From positions 317,413-381,412 of IMG/VR virus record IMGVR_UViG_3300014205_000001: 64,000 nt of DNA; one strand, written 5' to 3'. The stretch comes from a virus (Duplodnaviria; Heunggongvirae; Uroviricota; Caudoviricetes). Positions within the stretch are counted from its first letter, which is position 1. Each line of letters begins with the position of its first letter. The translations under genes were made by a program, and so were the position numbers. The notes beneath the pieces were generated by a model, which saw only the letters and a list, made by a program, of their open reading frames with translations, searched no databases and was not told the DNA's origin. Positions 38,259 to 42,130 of the stretch are shown here, piece by piece.

Positions 38259-39536
38259 ATGAAAGCAGTACAAGTAGTAAAAATTAGTAAATTAATTCCA
38301 ATTTACAAAGAAGGCGTCGAAGCCAATTCCATTAATTTAGTAAACTTTGAGTTTCTTAATGGTGACGAATGTGGTTACAATGTAATCGCACAAAAAGGTT
38401 TATACGAATTAGGTGATAAAGCAATTTACATCATGCCTGATTTCTGTTTAAGTGAAATTTCATTGTTTGAATCTTTCACTGCACCCAATGGTGAACCTAA
38501 TAAAACGAAATTAGGTAAAATGAATCGTATTCGTGCCATCAAATTTAATTTTCAACAAGAAAATTCATCTGAACCTATTTTTAGTTTTGGTGTCTTATTA
38601 CCTATCACTGAAGTTAAATCTTATTTAGGTGATGCGTACGATGAAGAAACATTAACTGATACTTTAGGTATTACAAAATACGAAGAACCTGAAACTGCTG
38701 GTAGCGGTCAAACAAAAGGTGGACTACCTTCATTTTTATATTCTACTGACGAAACAAATCAAGAAACATTAAAATCACATATTAAAAAATTATGTGATGG
38801 CACAACTGAAATGGGATTTACGATTAAACGTGACGGATCATCTTTCACAACCTATTTCAGAAAAGATGAAAATGGTAATTGGTATCATGGTATTTGTTCA
38901 CGTAATCAAGAAAAGAAAACTGAACAATATTACGTTTCCAAATATGTGGATTCTCATAAAAATGAATACACTAAGTACATGGACCCTGAAACAAAAGAAA
39001 TGGGTTGGAAATGTCATGTCAATAATCATTTTGTAAATGAACGTGATATTTTAAATACAGATTGGAAACAAGTAACTACGGAAGTAAAAGATTCTTGGGT
39101 AGAACTTGCCAATAAATCTGGATTAATTGAACAAGGTATGGCATATTGCCAAGCCAATGATATTCAATTAGCATTCCGTGGTGAAATTTACGGACAAGGT
39201 TTAAAAGGTTCAGGTAATAAATCAAATCCGGACGCTGCCAAAAAACAAGGTTTGTATCTCTTTGGTGTAGATGATTTAAGTTCAGGATTTTCTGTAAGAA
39301 TAAACGATAGCAGTGAACATAATTTAAGTAAATTAGCTACACAATTTGGTATTGAATATTCAATTTCTGATTGGTATTTACCAACATCTTACGAAGACTT
39401 TTGTAATTTTTGTGAAAGTATTATTCAGGATGAAGCAAGTAAAGGCCGAATCATTGAAGGTGTAGTAGTAAGAACTCGTTATACAAACGAATTATCAACC
39501 AAGTACATGAATAAAGTGTACGACGCAAAAAAGTAA
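38259..39536 (+). CDS. RNA ligase, Rnl2/DRB0094-type
   Basis: N-terminal OB-like module (I.PI..AN.I...KG.Y..GD..IYI.PD), motif I KRDGSS, FRGEIYG, EGVVV, KYMN. Confidence 0.82.
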   Translation: MKAVQVVKISKLIPIYKEGVEANSINLVNFEFLNGDECGYNVIAQKGLYELGDKAIYIMPDFCLSEISLFESFTAPNGEPNKTKLGKMNRIRAIKFNFQQENSSEPIFSFGVLLPITEVKSYLGDAYDEETLTDTLGITKYEEPETAGSGQTKGGLPSFLYSTDETNQETLKSHIKKLCDGTTEMGFTIKRDGSSFTTYFRKDENGNWYHGICSRNQEKKTEQYYVSKYVDSHKNEYTKYMDPETKEMGWKCHVNNHFVNERDILNTDWKQVTTEVKDSWVELANKSGLIEQGMAYCQANDIQLAFRGEIYGQGLKGSGNKSNPDAAKKQGLYLFGVDDLSSGFSVRINDSSEHNLSKLATQFGIEYSISDWYLPTSYEDFCNFCESIIQDEASKGRIIEGVVVRTRYTNELSTKYMNKVYDAKK

Positions 39537-39636: not shown

Positions 39637-39849
39637 ATGATCGTGTTTCCTAAACGCGAACAAATTGCTGAACAAGTATATTTGTCGCTGTACAACAAAG
39701 AAGGACAAATTCTAATTCGTAGTTCTGCAGGTACAACTGAAGATATTTTAACAGTCGAATATGATGGACTTATTTATATGAGTTTTTCACAATTGCCTAA
39801 TAATGTATTTTTAGATTATGCATCTGTAGTTAACAAATTCAAAGATTGA
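39637..39849 (+). CDS. Hypothetical protein
   Basis: 70-aa ORF. Confidence 0.5.
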   Translation: MIVFPKREQIAEQVYLSLYNKEGQILIRSSAGTTEDILTVEYDGLIYMSFSQLPNNVFLDYASVVNKFKD

Positions 39850-40078: not shown

Positions 40079-40113
40079 TATATTTGTAGTATCAAAACAA
40101 ACGTTCTTTTAAT
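40079..40113 (+). promoter_or_regulatory. Bacteroidota-type -7 promoter TATATTTG followed by boxA-like CGTTCTTTTTAA
   Basis: Exact TAnnTTTG at 40079-40086; boxA-like at 40102-40113; upstream of the tRNA-like RNA. Confidence 0.6.
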
Positions 40114-40184
40114 TGGAAGATGAAAACTGGAAACCACCCTTAACTGGGACTCGGATAGGTAAATAATCTTCCATTTTTTAACAG

Positions 40185-40456
40185 CCCGGTGTAGCTCAGT
40201 TGGTTAGAGCACTTGTCTGATACGGATGTAATTTCCTTCAAGAACTAAACTGTTGTACAATAGTTTTATTCCCACGGAAATGGCATTAGTAGTTTTCAAA
40301 CGAAAGGATTGATAATTCGTCGACGTTTTATTGGTCTAAATAAATTTGAAAGGTATTAATGTTAATCCAATACAAGAGGCGTTCCTGTTAATGTTGGCGA
40401 AATCGAAGATGGTAGCTGGCAAGCGCGGGTCGGGGGTTCGGGTCCCTCCACCGGGA
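40185..40456 (+). ncRNA. tRNA-scaffolded RNA (Ile-GAT-like remnant) with about 155-nt anticodon-loop expansion and long variable arm
   Basis: Acceptor CCCGGTG/CACCGGG + A, D-arm GCTCAGTTGGTTAGAGC, anticodon stem CTTGT/ACAAG (40212-16/40372-76), T-arm GGGGG-TTCGGGT-CCCTC. Confidence 0.75.
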
Positions 40457-40494
40457 CATTGGTTTATTGGTCAGCGTAGGTGAGGCTTCACCTC

Positions 40495-40526
40495 AAAAAG
40501 GGTTACTTTTCAGTAACCCTTTTTTT
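40495..40526 (+). terminator. Intrinsic terminator closing the tRNA-like transcript
   Basis: AAAAAGGGTTACT / AGTAACCCTTTTTTT. Confidence 0.85.
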
Positions 40527-40573
40527 ATGCAAATAAATTTCATAGTTACAATAAAAATGATTAATTATGTAGT

Positions 40574-41137
40574 ATGAAACAACGTAAAACTCCACCTTTT
40601 CTTATCGACGAAATGTGCGATATTATTCAATTCGAATTTACAGAATTTGACCCATATTTTACTTCAATGTTAGAACCCTCTGCAGGTGAAGGTGATATGT
40701 TTGACGAACTATATTTAAATCGTTTATGTTTTGACGTGAGACGCGAAAATATTTTGTGTGTCGAATTAAACGAACAAAAAGCAAAAATTTGCGCAGATAA
40801 AAATTATCCCACCTTACGTGCTGACTTTTTGAAACATGATTTTGGTACTCGTAAATTTGACATTATTATTGCAGCTCCTCCTTTCATTAATAATGTAGAT
40901 GTTGAACACATCCAAAAAATGTATCGTTTACTTAAACCTAGTGGTATCATTGTTACATTGACAACTCCTTATTGGACAACAAACAATGAACCACATCAAG
41001 TTGTCTTTCGGGAATTTTTAAAAGATAAACGTTACTCATTAAAAATGGTACCCGACAATACTTTCATTGAGAAAGGTAAAACAGTCCCTACTGCAATATT
41101 AACTTTACATAAAAAATATACAAATGAAAATGCTTGA
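40574..41137 (+). CDS. SAM-dependent amino-methyltransferase-like protein
   Basis: Motif I LEPSAGEG, VELN, ADFL, FDIII; motif IV reads APPF instead of NPPF. Confidence 0.8.
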   Translation: MKQRKTPPFLIDEMCDIIQFEFTEFDPYFTSMLEPSAGEGDMFDELYLNRLCFDVRRENILCVELNEQKAKICADKNYPTLRADFLKHDFGTRKFDIIIAAPPFINNVDVEHIQKMYRLLKPSGIIVTLTTPYWTTNNEPHQVVFREFLKDKRYSLKMVPDNTFIEKGKTVPTAILTLHKKYTNENA

Positions 41138-41624
41138 AACACAAGAAGAAGAATTTAAACCAGGTGATAATGTTTATTATTGTTTAGGCGATCAAGGTGA
41201 TTTTGGAGGTAAAAGTGGAATTATCGACAGAATTGAAGATACAGTAGTATTTATTGTTGATCAACCTATTCCTACAGCATTGGAATATTTGCAACATAAA
41301 CGTCCTGAACCTGAAGTAATTATTTTACCTTTAAAAGAAAATTACGCTTTAGCACATTTATTTACTGTTGAACATTTGGATGCTTTAGGTTATAAAGTAA
41401 CAGATTTCAATGGAGTTTGTGGAAAAGCTAAAGAGAAAAAAGCTGGTGGTAAAAAAACTATTGCTTGGAATTTTGAAGGTATTAGTTGCGATTATTTTGG
41501 CAAACCTTTAGAACAACCCAACGTTGCTTTCGGAGTCCGTGATGACTGGGACACGCGTATTACGTTTGCAGGTTACATTCGTAATTTAACAGATTTACAA
41601 ACAGTACTAACACTTACTCGATAA
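41124..41624 (+). CDS. Hypothetical protein
   Basis: 166-aa ORF. Confidence 0.65.
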   Translation: MKMLETQEEEFKPGDNVYYCLGDQGDFGGKSGIIDRIEDTVVFIVDQPIPTALEYLQHKRPEPEVIILPLKENYALAHLFTVEHLDALGYKVTDFNGVCGKAKEKKAGGKKTIAWNFEGISCDYFGKPLEQPNVAFGVRDDWDTRITFAGYIRNLTDLQTVLTLTR

Positions 41625-42130
41625 TGAAACCATTTTGGAAAACCAATAATAATTTTCAAGTCCGTTGGAACGAACCTTTAGGGAAACCTGAATGTCCTTA
41701 CGCATATCGTTTTGTGATAATCTTTTTTGGTTATTCAATTCGTTTACATTATTGGTTACGAAGTGATGATAAAAGGTACATGCATGATCATCCGTGGAGT
41801 TTTCGTACCTTTGTGTTAAAAGGTGAATATACAGACGTATCAAGATATAATGTTACTGATTTAAACGATTTACCTGATTTGCAAGGAAGTTGTGGAATGG
41901 TTGAAGATAATAATGATCATTTTATTGTTCGTGAAACTATCAATATTACTGCATATCGTAAAGCTAATCATATTCACTATGTAGAGATTCCCAAACCCGG
42001 TGTTATCACGCTTGTATTTTGCGGTAGACCTAAACGTAAATGGGGTTTTTGGATTCCTGGACGTGAAAATTTATTACGTCCCTTAAAGTACTTTGCAAAA
42101 TACGGACATCCTCCTTGTTCAGAACAATAA
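41624..42130 (+). CDS. Cupin-fold protein
   Basis: LHYWLRSDD.RYMHDHPWSF.TFVLKG.Y...H..E...TLVFCG..KRKWGF. Confidence 0.65.
   Translation: MKPFWKTNNNFQVRWNEPLGKPECPYAYRFVIIFFGYSIRLHYWLRSDDKRYMHDHPWSFRTFVLKGEYTDVSRYNVTDLNDLPDLQGSCGMVEDNNDHFIVRETINITAYRKANHIHYVEIPKPGVITLVFCGRPKRKWGFWIPGRENLLRPLKYFAKYGHPPCSEQ

What the first reader, a model, noticed from the sequence alone, without database searches (positions are those of the whole stretch)
40185..40456. 272-nt tRNA-scaffolded RNA with a giant anticodon expansion and an oversized variable arm
Acceptor, D-arm and T-arm are canonical. The anticodon stem CTTGT/ACAAG encloses about 155 nt that fold into long helices: GGAT/ATCC, ATTTCC (40231-36)/GGAAAT (40276-81), and an 18-bp helix 40283-40300/40345-40362. 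The variable arm is about 50 nt, closed by GCGTT/AGCGC. A CTGATA anticodon remnant persists. Removing 40223-40370 (the canonical 37/38 intron position) would restore a 7-nt Ile-GAT loop CTGATAT. It has its own promoter, boxA and terminator. It lacks tmRNA G3:U70 and recognisable group I cores. It may be an unusual spliced tRNA (the phage has two RNA ligases) or a new tRNA-like ncRNA.
Basis: partly seen in the sequence, partly recalled or inferred. Interest (0 to 1): 0.78.

Follow-up and report, generated by a model that had tools for sequence, protein, structure and literature searches.

The report
Phage tRNA-scaffold RNA with methyltransferase partner
This giant phage carries a strongly conserved 273-base gene shaped like an isoleucine tRNA, whose anticodon arm is lengthened into a folded rod with a self-pairing tip; in related phages it always sits next to a stripped-down methyltransferase gene and usually a small metal-binding protein gene, so it is probably a working RNA partner of those proteins rather than an ordinary or broken tRNA.

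Summary
Window 40185-40457 is a tRNA-Ile(GAU)-shaped gene with a 149-nt insert in the anticodon loop and a 50-nt insert in the variable loop. I found about 20 relatives in other phage contigs. Their acceptor, anticodon and T stems covary. The insert (79-148 nt) keeps a conserved rod: helix P1, a 5-bp helix with two covarying pairs, and a hairpin whose apical loop is always self-complementary (GUCGAC, UUCGAA, UUGCAA, UGGCCA, GUAC). It is not a group I intron, a bulge-helix-bulge intron, a tmRNA or any Rfam family other than tRNA. Against a 92%-identical sister phage the RNA differs at 1 of 273 bases. The RNA ligase link is local only. The conserved link is to a 175-195-aa N6-adenine methyltransferase domain that lacks a target-recognition domain (19 of 19 loci) and usually to a viral cupin. 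Best reading (about 0.5): a non-decoding tRNA-scaffold RNA that pairs through its tip and works with these enzymes. Protein-dependent splicing to tRNA-Ile remains possible (about 0.2). Expression and splicing are untested. Earlier notes of this scan described sister families (valine-like tRNA mimics beside the same kind of cupin) on other DNA. I found no publication.

The parts
40079..40086 (+). Probable promoter -7 box TATATTTG (Bacteroidota type, TAnnTTTG)
   Evidence: Read from the sequence. The same box and downstream AACGTTCTTT are conserved in relatives L014, L016, L018 and L022. The sigma-70 scan finds nothing useful here. Inferred, not shown.
40105..40179 (+). Leader hairpin GGAAGAT/ATCTTCC followed by a T run, between the promoter and the RNA (terminator-like; function unknown)
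   Evidence: Sequence. Present in L016 and L021; absent in L018, L019 and L022, where the promoter abuts the RNA.
40185..40457 (+). The whole tRNA-Ile(GAU)-shaped RNA gene (273 nt): C1-G72, A73, C74, no encoded CCA
   Evidence: ARAGORN -i. Rfam tRNA scores 17 bits here, and 46.4 bits for the short homologue L018. 272 of 273 bases are identical in sister phage L016, against 78-92% identity in the flanks.
40212..40222 (+). Anticodon stem 5' strand CTTGT (40212-16) and the loop remnant CTGATA (40217-22); CTGAT is invariant in 17 MTase-linked relatives
40223..40371 (+). Anticodon-arm insert (149 nt). P1 is GGAT 40224-27 / ATCC 40365-68; the 3' bulge is AAT 40369-71
   Evidence: P1 covaries among relatives: GGTC/GACC, GCTC/GAGC, GTTC/GGGC, CGGTAGTAAAAT/GTTTTACTGCTG, GATTC/GAGTC.
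40228..40282 (+). Lineage-specific 5' branch: ATTTCC 40231-36 / GGAAAT 40276-81, enclosing hairpin 40247-54 / 40259-66 with loop GUAC
   Evidence: Absent from the short forms L018, L021 and L022; different branches occupy this place in L046, L047 and L050.
40283..40362 (+). P2, the long helix 40283-40300 / 40345-40362 that closes the conserved core
   Evidence: The only difference from L016 (A to G at 40355) changes a U-A pair to U.G.
40300..40344 (+). Conserved core: A-rich J5 40301-05; P4 GGATT 40306-10 / GGTCT 40333-37; P3 ATAATTC 40312-18 / GTTTTAT 40325-31; apical loop GTCGAC 40319-24; J3 AAATAAA 40338-44
   Evidence: RNAalifold on the core alignment recovers P4 and P3 with compensatory changes. 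Table of all members. nhmmer finds the core once in the 391-kb genome (E 1.9e-6) and in every close relative.
40372..40376 (+). Anticodon stem 3' strand ACAAG
40380..40429 (+). 50-nt insert in the variable loop (AGG^TC), closed by GCGTT 40379-83 / AGCGC 40422-26; found only in the window and its sister L016/L017
   Evidence: Alignment. Identical in L016 although the flanks diverge.
40432..40456 (+). T arm (GGGGG TTCGGGT CCCTC), acceptor 3' strand CACCGGG, discriminator A73
40500..40526 (+). Intrinsic terminator: GGGTTACT / AGTAACCC stem, then a T run
   Evidence: Sequence. Weak Rfam matches align to this hairpin. Conserved in relatives.
40574..41137 (+). 187-aa methyltransferase: N6-adenine (gamma-class) catalytic domain without a target-recognition domain; motif I EPSAGEG, motif IV AAPPF
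   Evidence: Pfam Eco57I and Methyltransf_11, weak. AF2 model pLDDT 84.5. Best folds are the catalytic domain of M.TaqI (E 8e-11, TM 0.71), CamA and M.BseCI. Co-occurs with the RNA in 19 of 19 loci.
41624..42130 (+). 168-aa viral cupin (HDH...HxH metal site)
   Evidence: PHROG 4786, 3.9e-30. Foldseek finds Mn/Fe cupins and cysteine dioxygenase. Atlas search. Follows the MTase in most loci. Its close relatives sit beside other tRNA-like genes.
38259..39536 (+). 425-aa RNA ligase (DraRnl / TIGR02306-like): a neighbour in this clade only, not a conserved partner
   Evidence: Absent from the flanks of L050-L074.

Best explanation
This is a functional gene for a non-decoding, tRNA-Ile(GAU)-derived structured RNA. 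The intact acceptor, D and T arms give the L-shaped body. That body presumably provides end-processing and stability, as in the engineered 'tRNA scaffold'. The anticodon arm is prolonged into a conserved rod (P1, P2, an A-rich internal loop, a 5-bp helix P4 with fixed G.U/U.G wobbles, and hairpin P3). The old loop CUGAU(A) is left as a bulge. The tip of the rod is a self-complementary hexaloop (GUCGAC here), which most likely forms a loop-loop (kissing) duplex, so the RNA would act as a homodimer or pair with another nucleic acid carrying the same palindrome. The RNA works together with the genes inherited with it: a methyltransferase that is only a catalytic domain, and usually a cupin. I infer that it is their RNA partner, either a dedicated substrate or a scaffold/targeting subunit. 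Shown: the structure, its conservation, and the gene linkage. Inferred: no splicing, dimerisation, and the physical RNA-protein partnership.
For: Structure and selection:
- The cloverleaf stems have compensatory changes in 14 of 21 pairs.
- P1, P3 and P4 covary. P4 pair 2/9 is G-C, U-A, A-U or C-G; pair 5/6 is U.G, C-G, A-U or U-A.
- G.U pairs in P1 and P3 (for example in L056 and L060) show selection at the RNA level, not on a DNA palindrome.
- The RNA differs at 1 of 273 nt from a sister phage, while neighbouring genes differ at 8-22% of nucleotides. This covers both inserts.

Apical loop:
- It is always self-complementary although its sequence changes: GUCGAC in 8 distinct genes; UUCGAA in L060, L063, L064, L067, L068 and L069, on different covarying stems; UUGCAA in L056; UGGCCA in L073; GUAC in L061.
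- A random hexamer is a palindrome 1 time in 64.

Against decoding:
- Position 37 is A, G or C among relatives.
- C1-G72 is invariant, unlike the phage's two ordinary tRNA-Ile(GAU) genes.
- A 50-nt variable-loop insert is tolerated.

Linkage:
- All 19 distinct loci with the MTase have such an RNA within about 2 kb: 17 upstream, one directly downstream (L063), and one an insert-less version (L065).
- L048 keeps the ligase and orf70 but lacks both the RNA and the MTase.
- The cupin's close relatives sit next to other tRNA-like genes with expanded anticodon arms.

The MTase lacks a recognition domain: its best folds are the catalytic domains of M.TaqI, CamA and M.BseCI, and longer relatives carry extra domains (DUF4942, PRTRC-E, helicases).
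Against: - There is no expression or size data for the RNA. No RNA-protein contact has been tested.
- CUGAU is invariant, and the two bases before the 3' anticodon strand are A-Y in 13 of the 14 insert-bearing genes checked. This is what a spliced tRNA-Ile loop (CUGAUAY) would need.
- An insert-less relative exists (L065), as expected if the insert were an intron.
- The MTase motif IV is APPF, not the usual D/N-PP-F/Y, so its activity and substrate are uncertain.
- Palindromic loops could serve something other than dimerisation.
- The linkage could reflect a shared pathway rather than a complex.
Confidence: 0.5

Rival explanations
1. It is a true intron-containing pre-tRNA-Ile(GAU). Proteins cut after U36 (or A37) and before the A-Y that precedes the 3' anticodon strand. 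A ligase (the neighbouring DraRnl-like enzyme here, or a host ligase elsewhere) joins the halves. The conserved insert is a handle that recruits the methyltransferase and cupin for an intron-dependent modification of the anticodon loop.
For: - The tRNA body is complete, with A73 and an invariant CUGAU. A cut at 36|37 would restore CUGAUAY in 13 of the 14 insert-bearing genes checked.
- Insert length varies (79-148 nt) and one relative has no insert (L065).
- In this clade an RNA ligase, and in relatives a HAD_SAK_2 phosphatase, lie just upstream.
- An N6-adenine-type enzyme next to a tRNA whose A37 is normally N6-modified is suggestive (established tRNA knowledge).
Against: - There is no bulge-helix-bulge motif: the loop faces a 3-4-nt bulge directly, with no 4-bp central helix (sequence).
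- No EndA or RtcB family gene is in the phage.
- The ligase is absent from the flanks of 11 other lineages.
- Passive protein-spliced introns are not known to keep a conserved structured core.
- The insert-less relative has C37 C38, not A-Y, and L063 has U-U.
- The phage already has two normal tRNA-Ile(GAU) genes.
- The variable-loop insert would remain after splicing.
Confidence: 0.22
2. It is a tRNA decoy or sponge. The exposed CUGAU bulge on a tRNA body would bait a host factor that recognises tRNA-Ile(GAU), such as an anticodon nuclease of a defence system or IleRS. The methyltransferase and cupin would then be only neighbours in an anti-defence island.
For: - The anticodon bases are invariant although decoding seems impossible.
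- Phages are known to carry tRNAs that counter tRNA-targeting defences (PMC10264068, found).
- RNA-repair genes are nearby.
Against: - It does not explain the conserved rod, the fixed wobble pairs or the self-complementary tip.
- It does not explain why the RNA and MTase are gained and lost together (L048 against its relatives) across lineages with 38-53% MTase identity.
Confidence: 0.12
3. The insert is a new small self-splicing or self-cleaving ribozyme.
For: - It has a conserved core with invariant bases and fixed wobble pairs.
- Its position in the anticodon loop after a U is as in bacterial tRNA group I introns (established knowledge).
Against: - No Rfam ribozyme or group I match, even at E up to 10.
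- The shortest inserts are 79-80 nt, too small for a group I core.
- The insert ends in A in most members, not the universal terminal G.
- No internal guide pairs with the 5' exon.
Confidence: 0.04
4. It is a decaying tRNA gene hit by insertions.
For: Default tRNA finders miss it.
Against: - 1 change in 273 nt against 8-22% in the flanks.
- About 20 homologues with compensatory changes.
- It has its own promoter-like box and terminator.
Confidence: 0.01

Closest known systems
Pre-tRNAs with protein-spliced introns at or near position 37/38 (Archaea, Eukarya; bulge-helix-bulge substrates of EndA/Sen)
   Same: An insert in the anticodon loop just 3' of the anticodon. The insert forms a helix that prolongs the anticodon stem. 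Insert length is variable. Archaeal genes with several inserts also carry them in the variable region.
   Different: No 3-nt bulge / 4-bp helix / 3-nt bulge motif. No EndA or RtcB in the phage. The insert has a conserved sequence and structure. The host is bacterial.
Group I introns in bacterial tRNA genes (tRNA-Leu UAA, fMet, Ile CAU of Azoarcus, about 205 nt; review PMC3984707)
   Same: They interrupt the anticodon loop of a bacterial-type tRNA gene, next to a U.
   Different: No P3-P9 core and no Rfam match. Inserts are as short as 79 nt. The 3' end is mostly A, not G.
YrlA / bacterial and phage Y RNAs with Ro60 (Rfam RF02553; PMC4201824)
   Same: A tRNA-mimicking ncRNA that works with a dedicated protein.
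   Different: YrlA is permuted and closed at the acceptor end, and binds Ro60. This RNA has free acceptor ends and a full cloverleaf, has no Rfam match, and its partners are a methyltransferase and a cupin.
Engineered tRNA scaffold for recombinant RNA (anticodon arm replaced by a cargo RNA; e.g. PMC3753655, PMC3401473)
   Same: The same design: a tRNA body carrying a structured cargo on the anticodon stem, which in E. coli gives processing and stability.
   Different: That one is man-made. Here the design is natural, keeps the anticodon bases as a bulge and has a conserved cargo.
Kissing-loop dimerisation sites with palindromic hexaloops (HIV-1 DIS, GCGCGC or GUGCAC) - from my own knowledge
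   Same: A 6-nt self-complementary sequence in an apical loop flanked by purines. The sequence can change as long as it stays a palindrome.
   Different: Dimerisation of this RNA has not been shown. The context is a phage tRNA-like RNA.
Type I restriction-modification HsdM with its separate specificity subunit HsdS; gamma-class enzymes M.TaqI and M.BseCI
   Same: The MTase fold and motifs. A catalytic subunit that needs a separate specificity partner has precedent.
   Different: No HsdS and no recognition domain. The conserved neighbour is an RNA. Motif IV is APPF.
Valine-like tRNA mimics beside a small cupin gene
   Same: Phage tRNA-shaped genes with an expanded anticodon arm next to a related cupin. 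I saw such Val-, Leu- and Asn-like genes beside this cupin's relatives.
   Different: This branch is Ile(GAU)-like, has the P4 / palindromic-tip core and adds the methyltransferase.

Membership tests
Canonical tRNA (Rfam RF00005) | 7-bp acceptor stem, D arm with GG, T arm with TTCRANY loop | tested here: met
   Stems covary in 8 aligned homologues.
Canonical tRNA (Rfam RF00005) | 5-bp anticodon stem closing a 7-nt loop; model score above gathering | tested here: not met
   The loop is interrupted by 149 nt. Rfam scores 17 bits against a 29-bit cut-off for the window copy. Default ARAGORN finds none. The short homologue L018 reaches 46.4 bits with the insert treated as an insertion.
Canonical tRNA-Ile(GAU) decoder | Purine 37 (A37, t6A) and a G1-C72-type acceptor as in the phage's own tRNA-Ile genes | tested here: not met
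   Position 37 is A, G or C among relatives. C1-G72 is invariant.
Group I intron in tRNA | Conserved P3-P8 / P4-P6 core detectable by Rfam group I models | tested here: not met
   No hit at E up to 10 on the window copy or on L047, nor at gathering score on 6 loci.
Group I intron in tRNA | Terminal G at the intron 3' end, a U.G pair at the 5' splice site, size of about 200 nt or more | tested here: not met
   Inserts are 79-148 nt and most end in A. No guide sequence was found.
Archaeal/eukaryal protein-spliced tRNA intron | Bulge-helix-bulge motif (3-nt bulge, 4-bp helix, 3-nt bulge) at the splice sites | tested here: not met
   A 7-8-nt bulge lies directly opposite a 2-4-nt bulge, then P1.
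Archaeal/eukaryal protein-spliced tRNA intron | Splicing endonuclease (PF01974) and RtcB-type ligase available | tested here: not met
   Neither is in the 391-kb phage. The host genome is unknown, so host enzymes were not testable.
tmRNA | tRNA-Ala-like ends with G3:U70, a tag reading frame, pseudoknots | tested here: not met
   ARAGORN -m and Rfam find none. The acceptor has no G3:U70.
YrlA / Y RNA (RF02553) | Rfam model match; permuted tRNA-like domain; Ro60-binding stem | tested here: not met
   No Rfam match. The topology is that of an ordinary cloverleaf.
Kissing-loop dimerising RNA | Self-complementary apical loop kept through sequence change | tested here: met
   Five different palindromes across lineages. 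Self-duplex energies are -7.5 (GUCGAC) to -4.1 kcal/mol.
Kissing-loop dimerising RNA | Dimer observed physically | not testable with these tools
   Needs native gels or SEC with loop mutants.
Gamma-class N6-adenine DNA methyltransferase (for the partner protein) | Rossmann fold with motif I and a (D/N/S)PP(Y/F/W) motif IV, plus a target-recognition domain | tested here: inconclusive
   The fold and motif I are met. Motif IV is APPF. There is no recognition domain in 187 aa. Longer relatives carry DUF4942 and other domains.

The most novel reading that the evidence does not exclude
The RNA is the missing target-recognition subunit of the methyltransferase. The self-complementary hexaloop at the tip of the rod base-pairs with the same palindrome in nucleic acid (GTCGAC for this phage; TTCGAA, TTGCAA, TGGCCA or GTAC in relatives), so the catalytic-domain-only enzyme methylates adenines at restriction-site-like palindromes. 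This would be an RNA-programmed, easily re-targeted modification system that phages use against host restriction.
Probability: 0.07. Interest if true: 0.95.

Novelty: new variant of a known kind. Interest (0 to 1): 0.72.

Why it matters
tRNA-shaped non-coding RNAs in phages are mostly unannotated because tRNA finders skip them. This one defines a family with clear structural rules: a tRNA body, a conserved rod and a palindromic tip. It also has a constant protein context, a methyltransferase with no recognition domain and a cupin. That makes the family directly testable. Does a natural tRNA scaffold dimerise? Is it the substrate or the specificity element of a methyltransferase? Or do bacteriophages have a protein-dependent tRNA splicing pathway? 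Any of these answers would be new for bacterial viruses. The design could also be useful as a natural RNA scaffold.

Tried and rejected
- **ARAGORN's 195-nt intron** (3' stem GCAAG at 40419-23). Rejected because homologues place the 3' strand at ACAAG 40372-76 and show the 50-nt piece to be a separate variable-loop insert.
- **My own impression of group I R- and S-like elements** (40237-50 and 40405-18). Rejected: they are in the wrong order, absent from the short homologues, and have no Rfam support.
- **My idea that the conserved AUUGG pairs with the anticodon loop.** Replaced by helix P4, which covaries.
- **Searches that found nothing.** blastn of the element against 50,697 phage records. 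Exact-pattern scans of viral contigs. A 16-mer scan that gave 23 chance hits, none with the core.
- **Ligase-based searches.** The viral scan gave nothing. The metagenome scan gave two contigs that stop just short of the element. The Pseudanabaena phages and LR756500, which hold the closest named ligases, have no such RNA nearby.
- **Read laying**. No contig joined across the insert. The only 'joint' (40211 to 40424, with 14 other letters between) is a cellular tRNA-Arg(UCU) that shares the D and T arms. The pieces from RNA-type runs cover only those shared arms, so nothing can be said about expression or splicing.
- **Methyltransferase-cupin complex job**. No verdict.
- **Genome-contig scan with the MTase**. 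Nothing found.
- **RNAalifold on 12 cores of unequal length**. Failed through misalignment; the 7 comparable cores worked.
- **GTCGAC counts in the genome** (21 observed, 27.9 expected). Uninformative.

Full report
**Where it lies.** The window is bases 317413-381412 of a 391-kb phage genome with terminal repeats. Earlier notes of this scan call it a Bacteroidota jumbo phage. The element is a single copy.

**Checking the observation.**
- Default ARAGORN and Rfam at gathering thresholds find nothing in the whole window.
- A permissive Rfam search gives only a 17-bit tRNA match to the 5' half and no group I, tmRNA or ribozyme match.
- The phage has 35 other tRNA genes, including two ordinary tRNA-Ile(GAU) and one tRNA-Ile(UAU).

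**Finding relatives.** Direct DNA searches failed.
- The upstream gene is an RNA ligase. Its close relatives in public assemblies led to syntenic contigs. These carry the same RNA with inserts of 79-80 nt (L018/L019, L021, L022), 138 nt (L046), 144 nt (L047) and 145 nt (L016/L017, the sister phage).
- A degenerate pattern for the conserved core found one more, in an unrelated context (L050).
- Relatives of the downstream methyltransferase and of the cupin added L052, L056, L060, L061, L063, L064, L067, L068, L073 and L074. They also added an insert-less version in L065.

**What the comparison shows: the tRNA body.**
- RNAalifold on a plain MAFFT alignment of eight genes recovers the acceptor, D, anticodon and T stems. 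14 of 21 pairs show compensatory changes, including four of the five anticodon-stem pairs that bridge the insert.
In the window the anticodon stem is 40212-16 / 40372-76, the anticodon-arm insert is 40223-40371, and the 50 nt at 40380-40429 are a second insert in the variable loop. Only the window and its sister phage have that second insert.
- All members have C1-G72, A73 and C74.

**What the comparison shows: the insert.**
- It is not free-form. Right after the loop remnant comes helix P1, with many G.U pairs and compensatory changes.
- Long forms add a lineage-specific side branch and a long helix P2.
- All forms share a core of about 44 nt: an A-rich strand; helix P4 (5'-G-N-A-U-Y / 5'-R-G-U-N'-U); a small internal loop; hairpin P3; and, after P4, N-AAUA.
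- P4 pair 2/9 is G-C, U-A, A-U or C-G. Pair 5/6 is U.G, C-G, A-U or U-A. The G.U, A-U and U.G pairs at positions 1, 3 and 4 never change.
- P3 stems differ completely between lineages but stay paired, partly through G.U pairs. Selection therefore acts on the RNA, not on a DNA palindrome.

**The apical loop.** The six bases at the tip are GUCGAC in eight distinct genes. They are UUCGAA in six others on unrelated stems, UUGCAA in L056 and UGGCCA in L073, with GUAC in the shorter loop of L061. All are self-complementary. A random hexamer is so 1 time in 64. The simplest reading is loop-loop pairing between two copies. The computed self-duplex energies are -7.5 to -4.1 kcal/mol. Dimerisation itself is not shown.

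**Selection.** The window copy differs from the sister phage copy at 1 of 273 bases, and that change turns a U-A pair of P2 into U.G. Over the same comparison the upstream spacer differs at 8%, the ligase at 8%, the methyltransferase at 13% and the cupin at 22% of nucleotides. Both inserts are therefore under strong constraint. This rules out a decaying gene.

**What it is not.**
- *Group I intron:* no model match on three searches, inserts as short as 79 nt, and most end in A.
- *Bulge-helix-bulge intron:* the loop remnant (7-8 nt) lies directly opposite a 2-4-nt bulge and is followed by P1, with no 4-bp central helix. The phage has no EndA or RtcB family gene.
- *tmRNA and Y RNA:* no match.

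**Gene context.**
- The ligase is a neighbour only in the window's clade. It is absent from the flanks of L050-L074.
- The constant neighbour is the 175-195-aa protein encoded at 40574-41137. All 19 distinct loci that hold it have a tRNA-Ile-like RNA within about 2 kb. In L063 the RNA lies 20 nt downstream instead of upstream. In L065 the RNA has no insert.
- L048 keeps the ligase and the 70-aa ORF but has lost both the RNA and this protein.
- The protein has SAM motif I (EPSAGEG) and an APPF motif IV. Its AlphaFold model (pLDDT 84.5) best matches the catalytic domains of the DNA adenine methyltransferases M.TaqI, CamA and M.BseCI (by sequence M.BseCI). At 187 aa it has no recognition domain. 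Longer relatives are fused to DUF4942, PRTRC-E or helicase domains typical of mobile-element DNA methyltransferases.
- A 145-170-aa cupin with an HDH...HxH site follows in most loci.
- A search with the cupin found 220 relatives in viral contigs. The closest 24 mostly lie beside tRNA-like genes with expanded anticodon arms, with or without the methyltransferase. The distant ones do not.
- This ties the element to the valine-like 'tRNA mimic plus cupin' families noted earlier in this scan on other genomes.

**How it most likely works.** I favour a non-decoding tRNA-scaffold RNA, at about 0.5. The tRNA body gives processing and stability. The rod displays conserved internal loops and a pairing tip. 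The RNA acts with the methyltransferase and cupin as their substrate or as a scaffold/targeting subunit. The points against decoding are:
- the varying position 37 (A, G or C);
- the invariant C1-G72;
- the tolerated variable-loop insert;
- the redundancy with two normal tRNA-Ile genes.

**The main rival.** Protein-dependent splicing stands at about 0.2. CUGAU is invariant, and the two bases before the 3' anticodon strand are A-Y in 13 of the 14 insert-bearing genes checked, so a cut after U36 would rebuild a proper Ile loop. The conserved insert could then be a handle for intron-dependent modification. The public reads that I could lay held no informative RNA data. Six literature searches found no description of such an RNA or module.

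**Verdict.** This is a real, strongly conserved and apparently undescribed RNA family with defined protein partners. Its mechanism is open. The boldest reading still allowed, an RNA-programmed methyltransferase, is unlikely (about 0.07) but cheap to test.

Noticed in passing
window 40105-40179: Between the promoter-like box and the RNA lies a hairpin (GGAAGAT/ATCTTCC) followed by a T run, with a tiny ORF (ATG at 40110, MKTGNHP) inside it. It is terminator- or attenuator-like. It is present in L016 and L021 but absent in L018 and L022, where the promoter abuts the RNA.
   Followed up: partly
whole genome G000: Several 6-bp palindromes are almost absent from the 391-kb genome: CATATG 0 (88.6 expected), AGATCT 0 (25), GAATTC 14 (168), GATATC 15 (117); also CTAG 188 (467). 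This is a strong sign of restriction avoidance. GTCGAC is not avoided.
   Followed up: partly
G000 genome 25123-25299, 44910-44998, 200209-200293, 234025-234112 (outside the window): Several of the phage's ordinary tRNA genes (Thr x2, Gln, Lys, Glu) are 81-89 nt long, with extended variable regions unusual for these amino acids. Two tRNA-like genes have 6-nt anticodon loops. One call is a tRNA(UUA) with a 36-nt insert.
   Followed up: no
L063 3246-3318; L065 385-458 and 2431-2504; L074 1058-1127; L080 2208-2282: Phages that carry the module often have tRNA(CUA) suppressor genes beside it, and the L065 methyltransferase frame seems to contain an in-frame TAG. These phages probably read TAG as a sense codon.
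   Followed up: no
L021 1972-2454; L022 1377-1913; L046 1363-1908; L047 1582-2103; L048 1937-2458: In relatives, a HAD_SAK_2 phosphatase (an RNA-repair 'Swiss army knife' HAD) sits just upstream of the DraRnl-like ligase. The window's clade therefore has an RNA end-healing and sealing pair next to the RNA gene. The window itself lacks the HAD gene at this place.
   Followed up: no
window 40458-40499: The 3' trailer between the RNA and its terminator is conserved (96.6% to L016), and a GTCAGCG block is shared with L018, L021 and L022. It contains a second small hairpin (about 40477-40492). It may be part of the primary transcript's processing signal.
   Followed up: no
L074 1199-1883: One phage has three different tRNA-like genes with inserts of 50-200 nt in a row, directly upstream of the methyltransferase and cupin. 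One of them carries its insert in the variable region, with a UGCGCA palindromic tip.
   Followed up: partly
window 40560-40576: The methyltransferase start codon lies inside a copy of the promoter-proximal motif (GTAGTATG...AAACAACG), which resembles the start of the RNA's own transcript (GTAGTATC...AAACAAACG). The mRNA may be leaderless, and its conserved N-terminus MKxQRxTP may partly reflect this DNA motif.
   Followed up: no
window 39637-39849: A 70-aa ORF with no family match is conserved between the ligase and the RNA in all syntenic relatives, including L048, which lacks the RNA and the methyltransferase.
   Followed up: partly
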